64,000 nucleotides of DNA from Trypanosoma brucei. Lineage: Eukaryota. Made by a program: the position numbers. How positions within the stretch are numbered: position 1 is the first letter of the stretch; each line of letters begins with the position of its first letter. This document shows, in pieces, positions 42,001 through 51,000 of this stretch. The stretch lies in assembly GCA_000002445.1 (NCBI GenBank), contig CH464491.1:4576001-4640000 (forward strand), read 5' to 3'.

Positions 42001-45000
42001 CCAACGAACCCAAACTCCAACACTCTAAAATATAGTTTCATAGTGAATATAAAGCTAAAAATTTTATGAAGCGGACCAACGTCGAGATTAGCTGCAGCAA
42101 TAGTGCATGAAATTTAAATGAGAAGCCTAACGGAAATGCAGCTAAGGGAAAAAGGGCTTCGATTTAACCACCAGCGGCTCAAGGAAGCAATAACGTAAAT
42201 TGAAAAATTGGTATTGGGGGTACTGACCACTTGGGAGGATATTTCAATAGGTATATGATCGGAAGGTGTAGGAAATAGAGGTTATTTGACATAAAGAGAA
42301 TAGAAAGAATCTAGGATATATAACGAAATTGCAAAAGAGTTTTTTTGTGGTACTTTTGGTAATAATAAAGAATATCAACAGAGCCTTCATTAGCAGCAAG
42401 CCAACTTCACGGACCAAGCGACCAGGGAGGTGCTCAAGATGGCAAACACGGCAGGGACGCCGGTTGTAGCGCCACTTTCTCCCTTGCAAACACGGTAAAC
42501 ACTCTAAATACAGGAGACGAACAATAGCAAAGCTAGAATGACTGCAGAGACACCCATAACACAAATTTCAAGCTTTGTTCTGGCTACTATTCCAAAGGCT
42601 AAGACTAGATATATCACAAACAGAAACTTTCAGGGAAGTGCAACAACAAAACAAAATGGAGCTAACAAAAATTGTGGAAGCGCTAGCTGTACTGCTAATA
42701 ATTGAAAGCAGCCGCGCTTCGGTCCACAGAACGGATTCAACAGCAGCCAACGCCTGCCAAGCGGCAGACGACTTTGCGGCCATAACTCGAGCAATCAACA
42801 GGCAGGTCGCGGAGCTTCAAAACAAAATTGACGAGGGACATAGGACGCTACTAAAACTCACTGTAGCAGCAGTCGCTCAATCCAGCAGGAAAGAACCAGC
42901 AGCAGCACTACTGCTAGCAGAAAGCGGCTCGAGGCTGCAAGCCGCGACCATGCAACTAAGTAACATCAAAGACCGAGCAGCAACGATCGCAAACAATATA
43001 GCCAAGCTCGGAGGACTGCAAGAAGCGGTGGCCGAATTGCTCAACGCCAAAATTCCAGCAAAGGCACCTGCTGCAGTAGCTGCTGGCGCCGCATTCGGGG
43101 TGGACGGCTTTGCAATCCAGTTAGCAGGTGTCGGCGGCAAACAATCAATTTGCAACGAGCATGAGAAACAGGCCCCCAGGAACAAGGAGGCTAAAGTCAA
43201 AGTGAAGAATGCCTACCCAATAACTTTTTACCATGCTACTAAAGCCGACAAAACTTCAGGAACGAACGGCAACGGGCCAAGGGCGTGCGTCCGGGCCGAC
43301 ACGCTCACTACTGCCTGCGCGACCTCAAGCAGCGACCAAACGAACTTCCTAATAACAGGTGGGCCGGTTACGAAGGCAGTACAGACACAATACACCGCTA
43401 CCCAAGAAGCCGCAACAAAGTACACTGCGCAAGCGAAGCAAACAACAGAGCAGTTTCCACCGCAGAACACAGTCGAAGCGCTTCTCAACGGTCTAATCGA
43501 ACTAGAAGCAGACCTAAACAAACTGAACTTTCAAACGTCATCGCTTCTGCCGACGGAAACAATAAATGGTGAAGAAACGAAGCAGGCACTTTTACAAATT
43601 TTAAAACCGGGTATGGCGCGGGAAAAAGTGTCAGACCACGAAAAGCAGATAGAAGAGCTTAAAAAGAAGCTATTAAAGTCAGACAAAACGGATGCAGGCA
43701 CCAAATTATGGCAAGAGATCGGCAAAACAACTTCGCCTGCAGTAGTAGCACAAAGCACCAAAGCCGAAGAAATAAGTGGCATAGAAGATCTTGGAAAATT
43801 AGCTGCGACACTGGGTCATTATCTTGTACAGGAGACTACGAAACCATCTTCAAAAGAACAATGCAATTTCAACAAAGAGGAAACAGGCTGCGATGGTAAA
43901 GAACAGGATAAATGCAACGGAAAATGCGAATGGAAAGAAATAAATGGAAAAGGTGAGTGCAAATCCAAAACTGGAGAAGAGGGTGTGAAAGCAGAGAATG
44001 AAGGAAAAACAACCACAAACACCACAGGGAGAAATTCATTTGCCATTAAGAAGACCCCTCTTTTGCTTGCATTTTTGCTTTCCTAAAAGAAATTCCCCCC
44101 TCAATTTTTAAATTTTCCTTGCTAAAATTTTGCTATTTGATATATTTCAACACGTGAGTTCCACCATTTTTTAACTGTATGTCTGTGCATATATAATTTT
44201 TTTGACAACTAAAAAATATTTCTTTTTCCTTTTTGTTGTTAAATTTTTAGGGTTAAAGTTTTTAAAAATTTTTGGTGTTGCTACTAAAAGTTTTCTTCCC
44301 CTGGCGATGCCGGCCACCTCAACGTGGTTCCAGGGTCCAGTACCCCGTATCATCGGGGGAAGCCAAGATTCAGAAGCGTTCCTTTCATGGGGAACACTGC
44401 TTTGCTCCGGCTACGGCATCATACAGCACAGGGATCAGCAGTGTCTTGCTGGGACACCGTTTTTCATTTGTCGGTCCCTGGGCACGCGCCAGCGTACCAT
44501 CAGCAGTATCATCCGCACTAAGATGCTGCTGTCCGGTGATGTGGAACTCCAAAAAAGGATTGCTAATTGACATCTTTTAGAGAGTCCGGGGTGGGGGGCT
44601 TCTCGCCCCATCTGCTGTATTTCGTTCAACTGCGGAGCTACAACAAAGCGTTATAGAGGGTGTGTTAGGATGCATAAAAAAGGGGAGACTCTACCACAGT
44701 CGCCAGACCAATAGCATCTCAGGGCTCTACGGTGATGGCTGATGGCCGAGCCGGTGGGGGGAAACTCCCACGAAGGCACGAAAAAAATTTTCAAAAAAAA
44801 AAATATTTGTGACGTAGTCGTCAGAAATGTTTTGTGCTTCTTTTGCTATGTCATTTATCTGCATTTGGATTCTTCGGCCGTAAGGTGTGTTCTGTATGCC
44901 CTTTACCGGTGTCTCTTTGATTTCTTTGTTCGCTTCCGCCTCGAGTTCCTTCCGCTTGGCACGCCATTTGTCGTACTTGTCATGGCAGCTGATTGGTTTT

Positions 45001-48000: not shown

Positions 48001-51000
48001 CATATTTATGTTTGAAATTGTACACATTATATTTTTATCCCCTTTGCGTCTTTCTATGTCTGCTTTAATATTCTTCGTGTCTCCCATTTCACGTAACAAC
48101 TCACTCACTCGGATTGCATCCTTTCCTTTATTTTAACTTCCATTTGGTCGTTCATTTGGTTGTAAACACCACTCGTATTATAATATTACTATGTGTACAC
48201 TTACTCACATATTCTCCTACTGCTTTTACTAATATAATCTAACCCTAGTATCCATAAAATAAAGAAAATAAACGAAATGATAATAGCACTCACTATTTAA
48301 ACCTTCTCATCCTACTACTTTATTCCCACAGGAAACTTTATAACTAAAATTTGTATTTTCAATTTTTTCATATTTTTTTTGAAAAGTATTAAAATATAAC
48401 TCATTTTGTGAAAATTTAGCAAATTATCTTACAACAGCAATTATTATAAGCTTCATAAAATTGCAAAAAAACTTCTTAAATTTTTGAAATTCTACAGAAC
48501 TCACAAAGACAGAAGCCATCAGAGAAATTTTCTCATTGACAAGAAAAACTTGAAGAGCGGCACTCAGGTTTGGGAAGCTTGCCTGTGCCGTCAACATAAT
48601 CTATCCATCCACATACTGCTTACTCAGTCGGTTTGAAATCCTTGTTTTCCGCTTCACAGGATTGATGTTTTGATGTTTACTGCAAGTCACCACGGTATTT
48701 GTCTCTCCTGTTACCGCTTCAACTTTGCATTCATGTGTTTTTGTGTCATAGTCGCAGTTAGCTTCTGGTCATTCTTCTGTGGTTGTGTTTTTCAGTTTGC
48801 ATTTATTTTGTTCATCTACTGTTAGCTTGCTCCTTTGTTTTTGCAGTGTATTTTCTGAATTGGTGACTGTGGGGCCCTCTATTAATATTTTTGGGGGCTG
48901 CCGCCGGATTTTTCGGGGCATTGCGTTGCTCCTGCATTGCCCTACCGACACTGCAGTTAACTGCTCGCCGCCTCCCCTTGCTTTGGCTGGGTTGCTGTGC
49001 GGCGTCACGACCGGTGCAGGCCGCTACGGCGACTGGCTTTAGCCTCCTAACTCCATATTCTGCCACTTACAAATATTAAGATTTTCTCGTTGGCGCCTGT
49101 TGAAAAGCAAATCGTTTCTCTCAGCTAAACTGCCGTGCGACAGCGTAAAAAGAAAAGCGCGCACAGCGCTATAGGCCATGCGCCACCGTTAAAAAAAATT
49201 TAAAAGCTGCGTGCAGAGAAAAATGAAGAGCTAAAATTCGCAAAAGTATAAAACATAACAACTCTCGTCAGCGCTGCAGGCTAAAAATATGCAAACGAAG
49301 ATGCCAGCTTGCCAAATAAGGGCTAGATCCAGCAGCGAAAAAAAGAGCCGCTGTATCACTTACAATTTAAAAAATGAAGAATTATTAAAAAATTTTAAGA
49401 GGTAAATTAAAAAATATCACTAACCCTAACACGCTAACCCTAACCCGTAGCTAGAAAAAAAGAGGGTTGCAATAAAAAGGGGGGCTGCAAAAAAAATCAA
49501 AATAAAAAATGTGAAGAATTTAAAAAATGAAAAAGTCAAAATGAAAAAAATTAAAATTAAAAAATATGATTAAGAAAAATTCGTGGATTAAAAAATTTTT
49601 TAAATTCAAATTCAAAAAGTCGGAAAAATAAAAAGAAAAATCATGCAATAGAAAAAATGGTTAAAAAAAATTGGTGAAAAACGCGCTAAACTAATTTATC
49701 GGGAATTCCAAAAACGTAAAAATCAAAAAAATATATAAAAAACAAAAGACACAAATAATTAAATAGAACAAAAGGAATTGGGAAAAAACGTAAAAATCTA
49801 AAAAATACGATAATTTAGAGAAATTAAAGATTAAAAGAAAGCTAAAAAATATTAACCTTAAAAGAAAAAAATCAAAAATGCCAAAAAAAATAATAAATGC
49901 AATGCTGCATTCGGGGGTCAAAAAAATGAAAAAAATTTTAAAGCCAAGTAGTAAAAATGAGCCAAAAAAAGATCGCAAAAAAAAAACAAAAAAAACTGGA
50001 GGTGTGTGTGCGGGGGCGTGGGGCGGTGCGGAGGGGGGAAGGAGGGTTAGGATTTGCATAACAAAATGGCTGCTGCATAATTAGGAAAATAAAAAATTTT
50101 TTAAATCGAAAAGCTAAAGAAAAAAATTTAAAAAAATGTTTAAAAAACTCTAAAACTAGGGGTGAAAAACACGGAAAAAATTAAAAACCCTAACCCTAAA
50201 AATGTCAAAAAATTCAAGAAAAAAGAAAAAGTTTTCAGCTATCAGAAAACAAATTTTTTTTACAGAATCACAATTTTTTACAACCAACCAACAAACAAAG
50301 AAATCTCGGCTGTTTTTTACGTGTTAAAATATATCATAGTAGCAAAAATTTTAGCAAAGGGAAAAAATTGAGGGGAGAGGGATTAAAAAAGCAAGGCCAC
50401 AAATGCAGCAGAAACCACACTGAGGGCAAATTGTTTGCTTGCTAGAATAGAGGAATCCTGACATTTGCCTTCAATCCATCCACAAACGGCTTTCTTTCCC
50501 TCTGGTGTCTTGCCCGGGACCTTTTTGCATTCGTCTTCTGTTTTCGCCTCGCCACATTTTGATTCATTTTTACCATCTGTCCCTGCTTGGTTTGCTGCTA
50601 CTTTTTCTGCTGCCTCTTTGCCTTTCTCGCTCAATGTGCACCTTTTTTCTCATCTTTTGCTTAGGCCTTCTACGCGCATGGCGGTTTGCAATCTGTGTCT
50701 TTGTCTTTGGTATTGCACTCTGCTTCTTTGGAGTCGATTATTTCTTGTGGTTGGCGCTTGGAAGGTTTGATAGTTTCTGCTGCATGTGCTGCGGTTATAG
50801 TGGCTATGGCCAGAGTGTCTCGTAATTGCCACGCTTGAGCCTCTGCTGCTTGCAGTTTGGCCTGCATTTTGGCTAAGTCGGCTCTTATGGTATATGCTTT
50901 TTTCAGTTCCTTCGTTGCTTGGAGCATGTTTTCGACCCATTTTACTTTGTGGAATGTCCCAGTTCCCACTGCCTTCGTGTAATCAATACAAGTGGCTGAG

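What the first reader, a model, noticed from the sequence alone, without database searches (positions are those of the whole stretch)
44087..48150. Convergent strand-switch between two VSG arrays, with a target-site-duplication-less RIME at its edge
All plus-strand cassettes end at 44086 and all minus-strand cassettes start from about 48 kb, so the arrays converge here. A complete RIME (44298-44803) sits immediately after a TTAGGG-like patch (tttttagggttaaag, 44247-44262). I see no matching target-site duplication when I compare the 12 nt either side, which would be expected if it arose by recombination between elements rather than by simple insertion. The 44.8-46.3 kb segment has no recognisable coding content on either strand.
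Basis: partly seen in the sequence, partly recalled or inferred. Interest (0 to 1): 0.5.

Follow-up and report, generated by a model that had tools for sequence, protein, structure and literature searches.

The report
Retroposon-joined junction of two VSG arrays
Two oppositely oriented arrays of silent trypanosome surface-antigen (VSG) genes meet at a single 505-bp RIME retroposon that lacks the usual 12-bp flanking duplication and cuts one VSG gene short, so an exchange between two retroposon copies probably joined the arrays, which is a known kind of event in these chromosome ends.

Summary
The convergence is real, but it is a point junction, not a 4-kb empty switch region. Three independent orientation markers (VSG domains, 70-bp repeats, the VSG 3'-UTR 16-mer) are plus-strand up to 44.15 kb and minus-strand from 44.8 kb onward.

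44299-44803 is a full-length 505-bp RIME. Its 5' half is 96% identical to an ingi 5' end, its 3' half is 91-92% identical to the ingi 3' end at 62.36 kb, and it has an A11 tail. Its 5' end lies 212 bp after the stop codon of the last plus-strand VSG.

Upstream of that fragment lie an ESAG3 pseudogene (47308->46216) and a degenerate 70-bp repeat (48209->48150). Together these form one ordinary minus-strand cassette.

There is no 12-bp target-site duplication (3/12; a control RIME scores 12/12). No tRNA and no RHS/ingi/DIRE-type protein domain was detected. The 'TTAGGG patch' is a recurrent part of VSG 3' flanks.

Best explanation: homologous exchange between two RIME/ingi copies fused the arrays and truncated the VSG. 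The partner junctions are outside the window, so inversion, deletion and translocation cannot be distinguished. This is ordinary for T. brucei subtelomeres.

The parts
42656..44086 (+). Last plus-strand VSG (a-type, 476 aa, intact ORF)
   Evidence: Pfam Trypan_glycop E=3e-11. The identical protein is called as a gene in assembly GCA_001457755.2.
44087..44298 (+). 3' UTR and conserved 3' flank of that VSG. Includes the 16-mer TGATATATTTCAACAC (44138-44153) and a TTAGGG-like doublet (44244-44263). The last 12 nt, AAAGTTTTCTTC, are the expected 5' copy of the TSD.
   Evidence: 16-mer map. Similar to the 3' flank of the minus-strand VSG at 50181-50378. Patch recurs in 5 VSG flanks. The 34 nt before the RIME match the published Tbingi/TbRIME target signature at 6/10 positions, a score reached by 3.3% of window positions (signature from PMC3820030).
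44299..44803 (+). Full-length RIME (505 bp): ingi 5' end 44299-44551, ingi 3' end 44552-44792, A11 tail 44793-44803. No target-site duplication.
   Evidence: 5' half 96.4% identical to an ingi 5' end that is followed by an endonuclease ORF (L003). 3' half 91.2% identical by blastn, 92.4% by local alignment, to the ingi 3' end at 62346-62603(-) (alignment). External-only profiles E=7e-88 and 6.5e-81. TSD test, control. The contig in GCA_001457755.2 ends 29 nt into this RIME.
44804..45296 (-). b-type VSG pseudogene, 5' fragment only (start codon 45296-45294, ~164 codons, 2 frameshifts and 1 stop). Cut off exactly at the RIME poly(A).
   Evidence: Pfam VSG_B E=2.4e-16 for a single frame. Frame-corrected: E=8.5e-26, 91.5 bits, profile 3-144 of 352. 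Coordinates.
45297..46215 (.). Spacer between ESAG3 pseudogene and VSG start. No recognisable content. About 600 bp longer than the same spacer in the two other ESAG3-bearing cassettes.
   Evidence: Six-frame Pfam scan found nothing at E<=1. No similarity elsewhere in the window or in the fetched loci. T-rich on + (AT skew -0.2 to -0.35).
46216..47308 (-). ESAG3 pseudogene, nearly full length (aa 25-352 of 368 alignable), with frameshifts and stops
   Evidence: phmmer against 1.84 billion representatives: best hit P0001, 368 aa, 80% identity, E=7e-48. That cluster is named ESAG3 by UniRef/NCBI. tblastn mapping. Paralogous copies at 35325-36248(+) and 52188-52971(-).
47309..48149 (.). AT-rich spacer between the 70-bp repeat and the ESAG3 pseudogene
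   Evidence: Six-frame Pfam scan found nothing. GC 0.30-0.36.
48150..48209 (-). Degenerate 70-bp repeat marking the head of the last minus-strand cassette
   Evidence: nhmmer with a profile of the window's 10 best 70-bp repeats: E=1.3e-5, profile positions 44-99.
48487..48870 (-). VSG C-terminal-domain pseudogene fragment; its 3' flank (~48265-48486) is similar to other VSG 3' regions. This is the tail of the preceding minus-strand cassette.
   Evidence: Pfam Trypan_glycop_C E=8.7e-12. 3' region similar to other VSG 3' regions. Coordinates.
62357..64000 (-). 3' part of an ingi, running off the window. It is the only other retroposon end in the window. It sits ~13 codons before the stop of a minus-strand VSG. 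It was tested as the reciprocal partner of the RIME and rejected.
   Evidence: blastn and alignment. C2H2 zinc-finger ORF. 3' profile hit 62356-62613. Its 3' flank TTTTTATGTGAT does not match the RIME's 5' flank.

Best explanation
The region is the meeting point of two silent subtelomeric VSG arrays in a Trypanosoma brucei-group genome.

Shown:
- The plus-strand array ends with an intact a-type VSG (stop codon at 44086) and 212 bp of its usual 3' flank.
- The minus-strand array ends with a normal cassette: 70-bp repeat at 48.2 kb, ESAG3 pseudogene, b-type VSG.
- That VSG stops after codon ~164.
- The only thing between the two arrays is one full-length RIME with no target-site duplication.

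Inferred:
- One RIME or ingi had inserted by ordinary target-primed reverse transcription into the T-rich 3' flank of the plus-strand VSG. The 5' flank still carries the Tbingi/TbRIME target signature in register.
- Another RIME or ingi had inserted, antisense, into a b-type VSG.
- Homologous exchange inside the two elements (crossover, break-induced replication or gene conversion) then joined the 5' flank of the first to the 3' flank of the second.
- This left an intact-looking hybrid RIME with no duplication, a VSG missing its 3' 60%, and a convergent junction.

The junction has no dedicated function. It is a scar of archive restructuring. Whether the event was an inversion, a deletion or an exchange between chromosomes cannot be decided from this window.
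For: - Orientation markers all switch at the RIME.
- The RIME is complete at both ends, judged against external copies and the in-window ingi.
- No TSD: 3/12 in register, and off-register matches are no better than chance. A T. b. gambiense RIME with the same end definitions has a perfect 12-bp TSD. The 12-bp TSD is the published rule for Tbingi/TbRIME (PMC3820030).
- The two flanks cannot be halves of one target. The left flank is VSG 3' flank, homologous to another VSG's 3' flank. The right flank is antisense VSG_B coding sequence, ending at profile position 144 of 352.
- In other cassettes of this window the next 70-bp repeat follows the VSG stop codon within ~260-400 bp. Here none follows.
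- The 5' flank matches the published ingi4 target signature at 6/10 positions in exact register, 5/7 in the part upstream of the TSD. These scores are reached by 3.3% and 1.3% of window positions. Bona fide copies score 5/10 and 7/10 (signature quoted).
- The left junction is also present in an independent assembly (GCA_001457755.2 contig, 99.1-100% identical over 32546-44327).
- The literature states that ingi and RIME recombine and cause rearrangements in T. brucei (PMC2854126). It also proposes that RHS pseudogenes, which carry a hot spot for ingi/RIME insertion, arose by homologous recombination between RHS variants (PMC7563717).
Against: - No partner junction was found. Neither AAAGTTTTCTTC after an element's 3' end nor TATTTGTGACGT before an element's 5' end occurs in the window or the fetched loci.
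- Chimerism of the RIME itself could not be shown. 3' halves of all compared copies differ by 8-12% from each other, so the comparison is uninformative.
- The target-signature match is only modestly significant.
- The right junction (poly(A)/VSG_B) could not be confirmed in a second assembly.
- A TSD-less insertion or an assembly mis-join at the repeat would give the same local picture.
Confidence: 0.55

Rival explanations
1. TSD-less retroposition. A single RIME inserted at or near a pre-existing convergent junction. This happened either with a target-site deletion (second-strand cleavage upstream of the first nick) or by endonuclease-independent capture at a double-strand break that had already truncated the VSG. 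In either case no duplication was ever made.
For: No TSD. The element is a single, intact, full-length copy. From general knowledge of LINE-1 biology, such events are documented in mammalian cells.
Against: The 5' flank carries the endonuclease target signature in the register expected for a normal insertion with a 12-nt staggered cut. Endonuclease-independent insertions are typically truncated and lack a normal tail, whereas this copy is complete with an A11 tail. I found no report of such events for ingi/RIME in the papers searched.
Confidence: 0.15
2. Assembly artefact. Two unrelated contigs, one ending in a RIME 5' part and the other starting in a RIME 3' part, were merged through the ~500-bp dispersed repeat. 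The convergent junction would then not exist in the chromosome.
For: RIME is a dispersed repeat. A short-read assembly of a close relative breaks exactly 29 nt into this RIME and 28 nt into the ingi 3' end. The right junction could not be confirmed independently.
Against: The window has no N and no gap. The RIME is a clean 253 + 252 bp full-length copy with no duplication or loss at the half-boundary. A 505-bp repeat is spanned by single Sanger or long reads. The sequencing technology of the source is unknown to me.
Confidence: 0.12
3. Inversion between this RIME (+) and the inverted ingi (-) at 62357, flipping the 17.5 kb between them and so creating the minus-strand block seen in the window.
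For: The two elements are in inverted orientation and share 91% identity over 262 bp by blastn. All four cassettes between them are minus-strand.
Against: Tested and not met. After such an inversion the ingi's 3' flank should begin with the RIME's original TSD, AAAGTTTTCTTC, followed by T-rich VSG 3' flank. Instead it reads TTTTTATGTGATGAGGGTTCCTCTTTTGCTTG..., which is the last ~13 codons and 3' UTR of a minus-strand VSG. That implies the minus-strand array continues beyond the ingi.
Confidence: 0.03
4. Ordinary insertion whose 12-bp duplication has decayed by point mutation.
For: The element is not young: its 3' half is 88-92% identical to other copies.
Against: At ~4-10% divergence about one change in 12 is expected, not nine. 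The two flanks belong to different, oppositely oriented genes, so they cannot be one interrupted target.
Confidence: 0.02

Closest known systems
TbRIME / Tbingi insertions (ingi4 subclade non-LTR retroposons of T. brucei)
   Same: ~500 bp made of the first ~250 and last ~250 bp of ingi. Has the conserved 5' signature and a poly(A) tail. Inserted downstream of a sequence resembling the published target signature AxxxxxxxTxxxGTxGGxTxxx^xTxTxxTxxxxx (PMC3820030).
   Different: Lacks the 12-bp target-site duplication that flanks simple insertions. Its two flanks come from different, oppositely oriented VSG cassettes.
RHS pseudogenes carrying RIME/ingi at a hot spot, with chimeric flanks attributed to homologous recombination (Bringaud et al. 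2002, as summarised in PMC7563717)
   Same: A retroposon sits inside a member of a subtelomeric multigene family, and recombination is invoked to explain non-matching flanks.
   Different: No RHS sequence is present (Pfam scans). The interrupted gene is a b-type VSG and the other flank is a VSG 3' flank, not the same gene family member.
ingi/RIME-associated indels and rearrangements between T. b. brucei and T. b. gambiense (PMC2854126)
   Same: Dispersed retroposons acting as substrates for recombination that changes gene order.
   Different: Those cases were defined by comparing two genomes. Here only one haplotype is seen and the event is inferred from the missing TSD and the truncated gene.
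Bloodstream expression sites BES7 and BES15 with an ESAG3 pseudogene 3' of the 70-bp repeats (PMC2567434)
   Same: The order is 70-bp repeat, then ESAG3 pseudogene, then VSG, as in the cassette at 48.2-44.8 kb and in two other cassettes of this window.
   Different: These are silent array cassettes with one degenerate 70-bp repeat. They are not telomeric expression sites with long repeat arrays and a promoter.
Alu/L1-mediated non-allelic homologous recombination in mammals (general knowledge)
   Same: Exchange inside two dispersed retroelement copies leaves one hybrid element without matching TSDs at a deletion, inversion or translocation breakpoint.
   Different: Different element family and host. 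Here the substrate is a contingency-gene archive in which such restructuring has little cost.

Membership tests
TbRIME (non-autonomous partner of ingi) | 5' ~250 bp identical in origin to the 5' end of ingi, including the conserved ~79-bp signature | tested here: met
   96.4% identity over 248 bp to the 5' end of an ingi in T. b. equiperdum that is followed by an Exo_endo_phos ORF. A profile built from external copies only hits 44299-44551, E=7e-88, from profile position 1.
TbRIME (non-autonomous partner of ingi) | 3' ~250 bp identical in origin to the 3' end of ingi, ending in poly(A) | tested here: met
   91-92% identity to the 3' end of the in-window ingi, downstream of its C2H2 ORF. External profile E=6.5e-81. 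Canonical end GGCACGAAAAAAATTTTC followed by A11.
TbRIME (non-autonomous partner of ingi) | About 500 bp, without the ~4.7-kb internal coding part of ingi | tested here: met
   505 bp. The two halves abut at 44551/44552.
Simple TPRT insertion of ingi/RIME | 12-bp target-site duplication flanking the element | tested here: not met
   3/12 in register. Best relaxed match 8/12, equal to the null. The control copy L002 has 12/12.
Simple TPRT insertion of ingi/RIME | Conserved target signature upstream of the element (ingi4 consensus) | tested here: inconclusive
   6/10 positions in register (5/7 upstream of the TSD), reached by 3.3% and 1.3% of window positions. Two bona fide copies score 5/10 and 7/10.
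VSG, b-type N-terminal domain (Pfam PF13206) | Significant match to the domain profile | tested here: met
   91.5 bits against a gathering score of 25, E=8.5e-26, but only profile positions 3-144 of 352.
VSG, functional gene | Intact ORF with complete N-terminal domain, C-terminal domain and GPI signal | tested here: not met
   Two frameshifts and one stop in 164 codons. Everything after profile position 144 is missing, and the sequence ends at the RIME poly(A).
ESAG3 | Sequence similarity along the length of ESAG3 proteins | tested here: met
   80% identity over 100 aa to a 368-aa cluster named ESAG3. tblastn covers aa 25-352.
ESAG3 | Intact ORF | tested here: not met
   Split over at least two frames with several stops.
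Convergent strand-switch region of a trypanosomatid polycistronic unit | Genes on both sides point towards the region | tested here: met
Convergent strand-switch region of a trypanosomatid polycistronic unit | tRNA or other Pol III genes, as often found at such regions | tested here: not met
   ARAGORN found 0 genes in the whole window. Rfam found 0 families.
Convergent strand-switch region of a trypanosomatid polycistronic unit | Termination chromatin marks (H3.V, H4.V, base J) and transcription converging on the site | not testable with these tools
   Needs ChIP-seq and RNA-seq data for the source strain.
RHS pseudogene hot-spot context | RHS coding sequence on either side of the retroposon | tested here: not met
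   No RHSP or other family besides VSG_B in translations of the flanks.

The most novel reading that the evidence does not exclude
The RIME may be one end of a retroposon-mediated inversion whose other end lies beyond the window. That inversion would have flipped a block of at least 17.5 kb (four or more VSG cassettes) of an originally uniform plus-strand array. Retroposons would then actively re-orient parts of the VSG archive. As a by-product, the RIME's internal 5' promoter would read antisense into the VSG fragment at a convergent junction, making a possible source of double-stranded RNA and siRNAs.
Probability: 0.15. Interest if true: 0.35.

Novelty: new member of a known kind. Interest (0 to 1): 0.2.

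Why it matters
It matters little beyond annotation. It gives a clean, sequence-level example of how dispersed retroposons restructure the silent VSG archive: an intact-looking RIME without a target-site duplication, a VSG cut at the poly(A) tail, and two arrays fused tail to tail. This kind of junction can be used as a marker to reconstruct the rearrangement history of subtelomeres between T. brucei strains and subspecies. It also corrects the reading of the 4-kb interval. The interval is not a special switch region but an ordinary cassette with an ESAG3 pseudogene and a truncated VSG.

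Tried and rejected
1. Inversion with the in-window ingi as partner. Rejected because its 3' flank does not carry the RIME's 5' TSD.
2. Degenerate TSD 'AAAA(G/A)TTTTC'. Rejected because the downstream TTTTC is part of the canonical element end, as shown by the ingi 3' end and by the L002 and L003 copies.
3. Chimerism test comparing 5' and 3' halves with other copies. Uninformative because 3' halves are generally 8-12% divergent.
4. Confirming the right junction in another assembly. 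Exact-protein look-ups for seven ORFs on the minus-strand side (one of them the junction-spanning ORF 44742-45143) found one scaffold only. It is broken by N-runs at the repeats and does not reach the RIME.
5. Homology searches with the word-indexed database for the ESAG3 pseudogene and the VSG_B fragment found nothing. The exhaustive HMMER search was needed to identify ESAG3.
6. tRNA, Rfam and HDV-like ribozyme scans found nothing.
7. Pfam six-frame scans of 45290-46300 and 47280-48270 found nothing, so no RHS, reverse transcriptase or endonuclease remnant was detected. Very degenerate DIRE remnants would escape this test.
8. The truncated VSG_B is not a paralogue of the neighbouring VSG_B at 50670-51881.
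9. Short direct and inverted repeats inside 44.0-48.4 kb are chance-level.
10. The organism of GCA_001457755.2 could not be verified in the literature. I believe it is T. equiperdum OVI, from memory only.

Full report
**What the window is**

The window is a silent VSG array of a Trypanosoma brucei-group genome.
- Long ORFs carry the Pfam families Trypan_glycop, VSG_B and Trypan_glycop_C.
- A contig of NCBI assembly GCA_001457755.2 is 99.1-100% identical over window 32546-44327. I believe this assembly is T. equiperdum OVI, but I could not verify the organism.
- Related retroposon copies come from T. b. gambiense DAL972 and T. b. equiperdum.

**Orientation map**

Three independent markers were mapped.
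- VSG protein similarity is plus-strand only up to 44086 and minus-strand only from 50386 on (phmmer). Pfam adds minus-strand VSG fragments at 44804-45296 and 48487-48870.
- A profile of the 70-bp repeat gives 14 plus-strand hits at 11 sites (3.4, 8.8, 13.0, 16.5, 19.4, 22.5, 26.2, 30.6, 34.4, 38.4 and 41.6 kb). It gives 6 minus-strand hits at 4 sites (48.15-48.21, 53.9-54.05, 59.1-59.2 and 61.9-62.06 kb).
- The conserved VSG 3'-UTR 16-mer TGATATATTTTAACAC (motif from established knowledge) occurs 7 times on the plus strand, the last at 44138-44153. It occurs 4 times on the minus strand, the first at 50321-50336.
- AT skew changes sign at about 44.1 kb.

The convergence is therefore real and far beyond chance.

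**The RIME**

- 44299-44803 is a complete RIME.
- Profiles built only from copies in other genomes hit 44299-44551 (from profile position 1, E=7e-88) and 44551-44800 (E=6.5e-81).
- The 5' half is 96.4% identical to the start of an ingi that continues into an endonuclease ORF (L003).
- The 3' half is 91.2% identical by blastn, and 92.4% by local alignment, to the 3' end of an ingi lying on the minus strand at 62357-64000. That ingi has a C2H2 zinc-finger ORF.
- That comparison also shows that 'AAAAAAATTTTC' before the final A-run is part of the element's canonical end and is not flank. The element therefore ends with the A11 run at 44803.

**Target-site duplication**

- Tbingi/TbRIME insertions are flanked by a 12-bp duplication (PMC3820030).
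- Here the 12 nt before the element (AAAGTTTTCTTC) and after it (TATTTGTGACGT) agree at 3 of 12 positions.
- Allowing shifted registers gives at best 8/12. That is reached by 5 of 23 other A-run sites and by about 18% of random sites.
- As a positive control, the RIME in T. b. gambiense locus L002, delimited in the same way, has a perfect 12-bp duplication, TTTAATTATTTA.

**The flanks**

Left flank (44087-44298):
- It is the normal 3' UTR and 3' flank of the plus-strand VSG. It aligns with the 3' flank of the minus-strand VSG at 50181-50378.
- The 'TTAGGG-like patch' lies inside this conserved flank at 44244-44258.
- The paralogous flank reads TTAGGGTTAGGG at the same place. Similar doublets follow three other VSGs, always in the VSG's orientation.
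- The patch is therefore a feature of VSG 3' flanks and not of the RIME.

Right flank:
- It is not empty. On the minus strand, 45296->44804 encodes a signal peptide and the first ~40% of a b-type VSG N-terminal domain.
- The frame-corrected Pfam VSG_B match is 91.5 bits, E=8.5e-26, profile 3-144 of 352.
- It has two frameshifts and one stop, and it ends exactly at the RIME poly(A) tail.
- The rest of that gene is not on the other side of the RIME.

- 46216-47308 (minus strand) is an ESAG3 pseudogene. An exhaustive HMMER search gave a 368-aa best hit at 80% identity, whose cluster is named ESAG3 by its sources. tblastn aligns aa 25-352.
- Two further ESAG3 pseudogenes sit in the same position, between the 70-bp repeat and the VSG, in cassettes at 35.3-36.2 kb (+) and 52.2-53.0 kb (-).
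- The same order is known from expression sites BES7 and BES15 (PMC2567434).
- 48150-48209 is a degenerate minus-strand 70-bp repeat.
- The stretches 45297-46215 and 47309-48149 gave no Pfam hit in any frame and have no similarity elsewhere.
- No tRNA, no Rfam family, and no RHS, reverse-transcriptase or endonuclease remnant was found.

So 44804-48209 is one ordinary minus-strand cassette. The actual switch is the RIME plus 212 bp.

**Mechanism**

- The two flanks belong to different, oppositely oriented genes, and there is no duplication. The RIME therefore cannot be a simple insertion into one target.
- The 34 nt upstream match the published Tbingi/TbRIME target signature (AxxxxxxxTxxxGTxGGxTxxx^xTxTxxTxxxxx; PMC3820030) at 6/10 positions in exact register, and at 5/7 in the part upstream of the TSD. 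Only 3.3% and 1.3% of window positions reach these scores. Two bona fide copies score 5/10 and 7/10.
- This suggests the 5' junction is an original insertion junction and the 3' flank was exchanged later.
- An exchange inside the element is the simplest way to keep the element intact to its last A.
- I therefore favour homologous exchange between two RIME/ingi copies, one in a VSG 3' flank and one antisense inside a b-type VSG (confidence ~0.55).
- ingi and RIME are reported to recombine and cause rearrangements in T. brucei (PMC2854126). Homologous recombination has also been invoked for RHS pseudogenes, which carry the ingi/RIME insertion hot spot (PMC7563717).

**What kind of exchange**

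- The obvious candidate was an inversion with the inverted ingi at 62357. It was tested and fails.
- Its 3' flank (TTTTTATGTGATGAGGGTTCC…) is the last ~13 codons and 3' UTR of a minus-strand VSG. It is not the RIME's lost duplication.
- Neither expected partner flank occurs in the window or in the fetched loci.
- Inversion with a partner beyond 64 kb, deletion between two direct copies, and exchange between chromosomes all remain open.

**Rival explanations**

- A duplication-less insertion, by target-site deletion or capture at a break (0.15).
- An assembly mis-join through the repeat (0.12). The window has no N. However, the short-read assembly of a relative breaks 29 nt into this RIME and 28 nt into the ingi end. 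I could not confirm the right junction independently despite seven look-ups.
- A decayed duplication is excluded by the nature of the flanks.

**Verdict**

The 'coding-free 4-kb switch region next to a telomere-like patch' is not supported. All components are ordinary parts of T. brucei subtelomeres, and retroposon-mediated rearrangement is a known process. This is a new example of a known kind, and interest is low.

Noticed in passing
window 55849-55996 (minus strand), also 55219-55271 and 49418-49443: An interstitial telomere-like tract lies on the minus strand: ~130 bp of TTAGGG and variants (TTAGGC, GTTAGG), including at least 4 perfect units in a row. It begins ~120 nt after the 3'-UTR 16-mer of the intact minus-strand VSG at 56161-57861, in the orientation of a chromosome end. 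T-rich DNA follows. It looks like the vestige of a formerly telomeric VSG that became internal to the array.
   Followed up: partly
window 7706, 11983, 44244 (+); 50183, 55226 (-): A TTAGGG-like doublet flanked by T-runs (consensus TTTTTAGGGTTAGGGTTTTT) recurs ~160-300 bp after the stop codon of at least five VSGs, always in the VSG's orientation. There are 5 matches where 0.02 are expected by chance.
   Followed up: partly
window 62357-64000 (minus strand): The 3' part of an ingi is inserted ~13 codons before the stop of a minus-strand VSG (3' flank TTTTTATGTGAT, then …RVPLLLVFQFL-stop and a 3' UTR). The same junction is present in a scaffold of GCA_001457755.2 (L006 from position 8511). The ingi's 5' end and TSD lie outside the window.
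   Followed up: partly
window 35325-36248 (+), 46216-47308 (-), 52188-52971 (-): Three ESAG3 pseudogenes (71-77% identical to each other at the DNA level) each lie between the 70-bp repeat and the VSG of a cassette. The other cassettes lack this insert.
   Followed up: yes
window 17295-17330 (minus strand): A weak 36-nt match (E=0.0026) to the conserved 5' signature of ingi/RIME. It may be a remnant of a degenerate retroposon (SIDER/DIRE-like).
   Followed up: no
window 50386-51881 (minus strand): This b-type VSG has a 403-aa N-terminal ORF. After an in-frame stop, a separate segment carries the C-terminal domain and GPI signal (…SSILASKQFALSVVSAAFVALLF). It is a pseudogene with a single obvious lesion.
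   Followed up: no
window 49200-50200: About 1 kb of very AT-rich (GC 0.20-0.34), strongly A-skewed low-complexity DNA on the plus strand (T-rich in the sense of the minus-strand VSG upstream of it). It contains short degenerate tandem repeats and resembles the T-rich tract that follows the telomere-like repeats at 55.2-55.85 kb.
   Followed up: no
L006 (GCA_001457755.2 scaffold CZPT02001037.1) versus window 57824-62384: The related assembly is a scaffold of short contigs joined by 10-N runs. Its breaks fall at the ingi 3' end, at the 70-bp repeats and at the start of the VSG at 57.8 kb. Apparent structural differences from the window cannot be trusted.
   Followed up: partly
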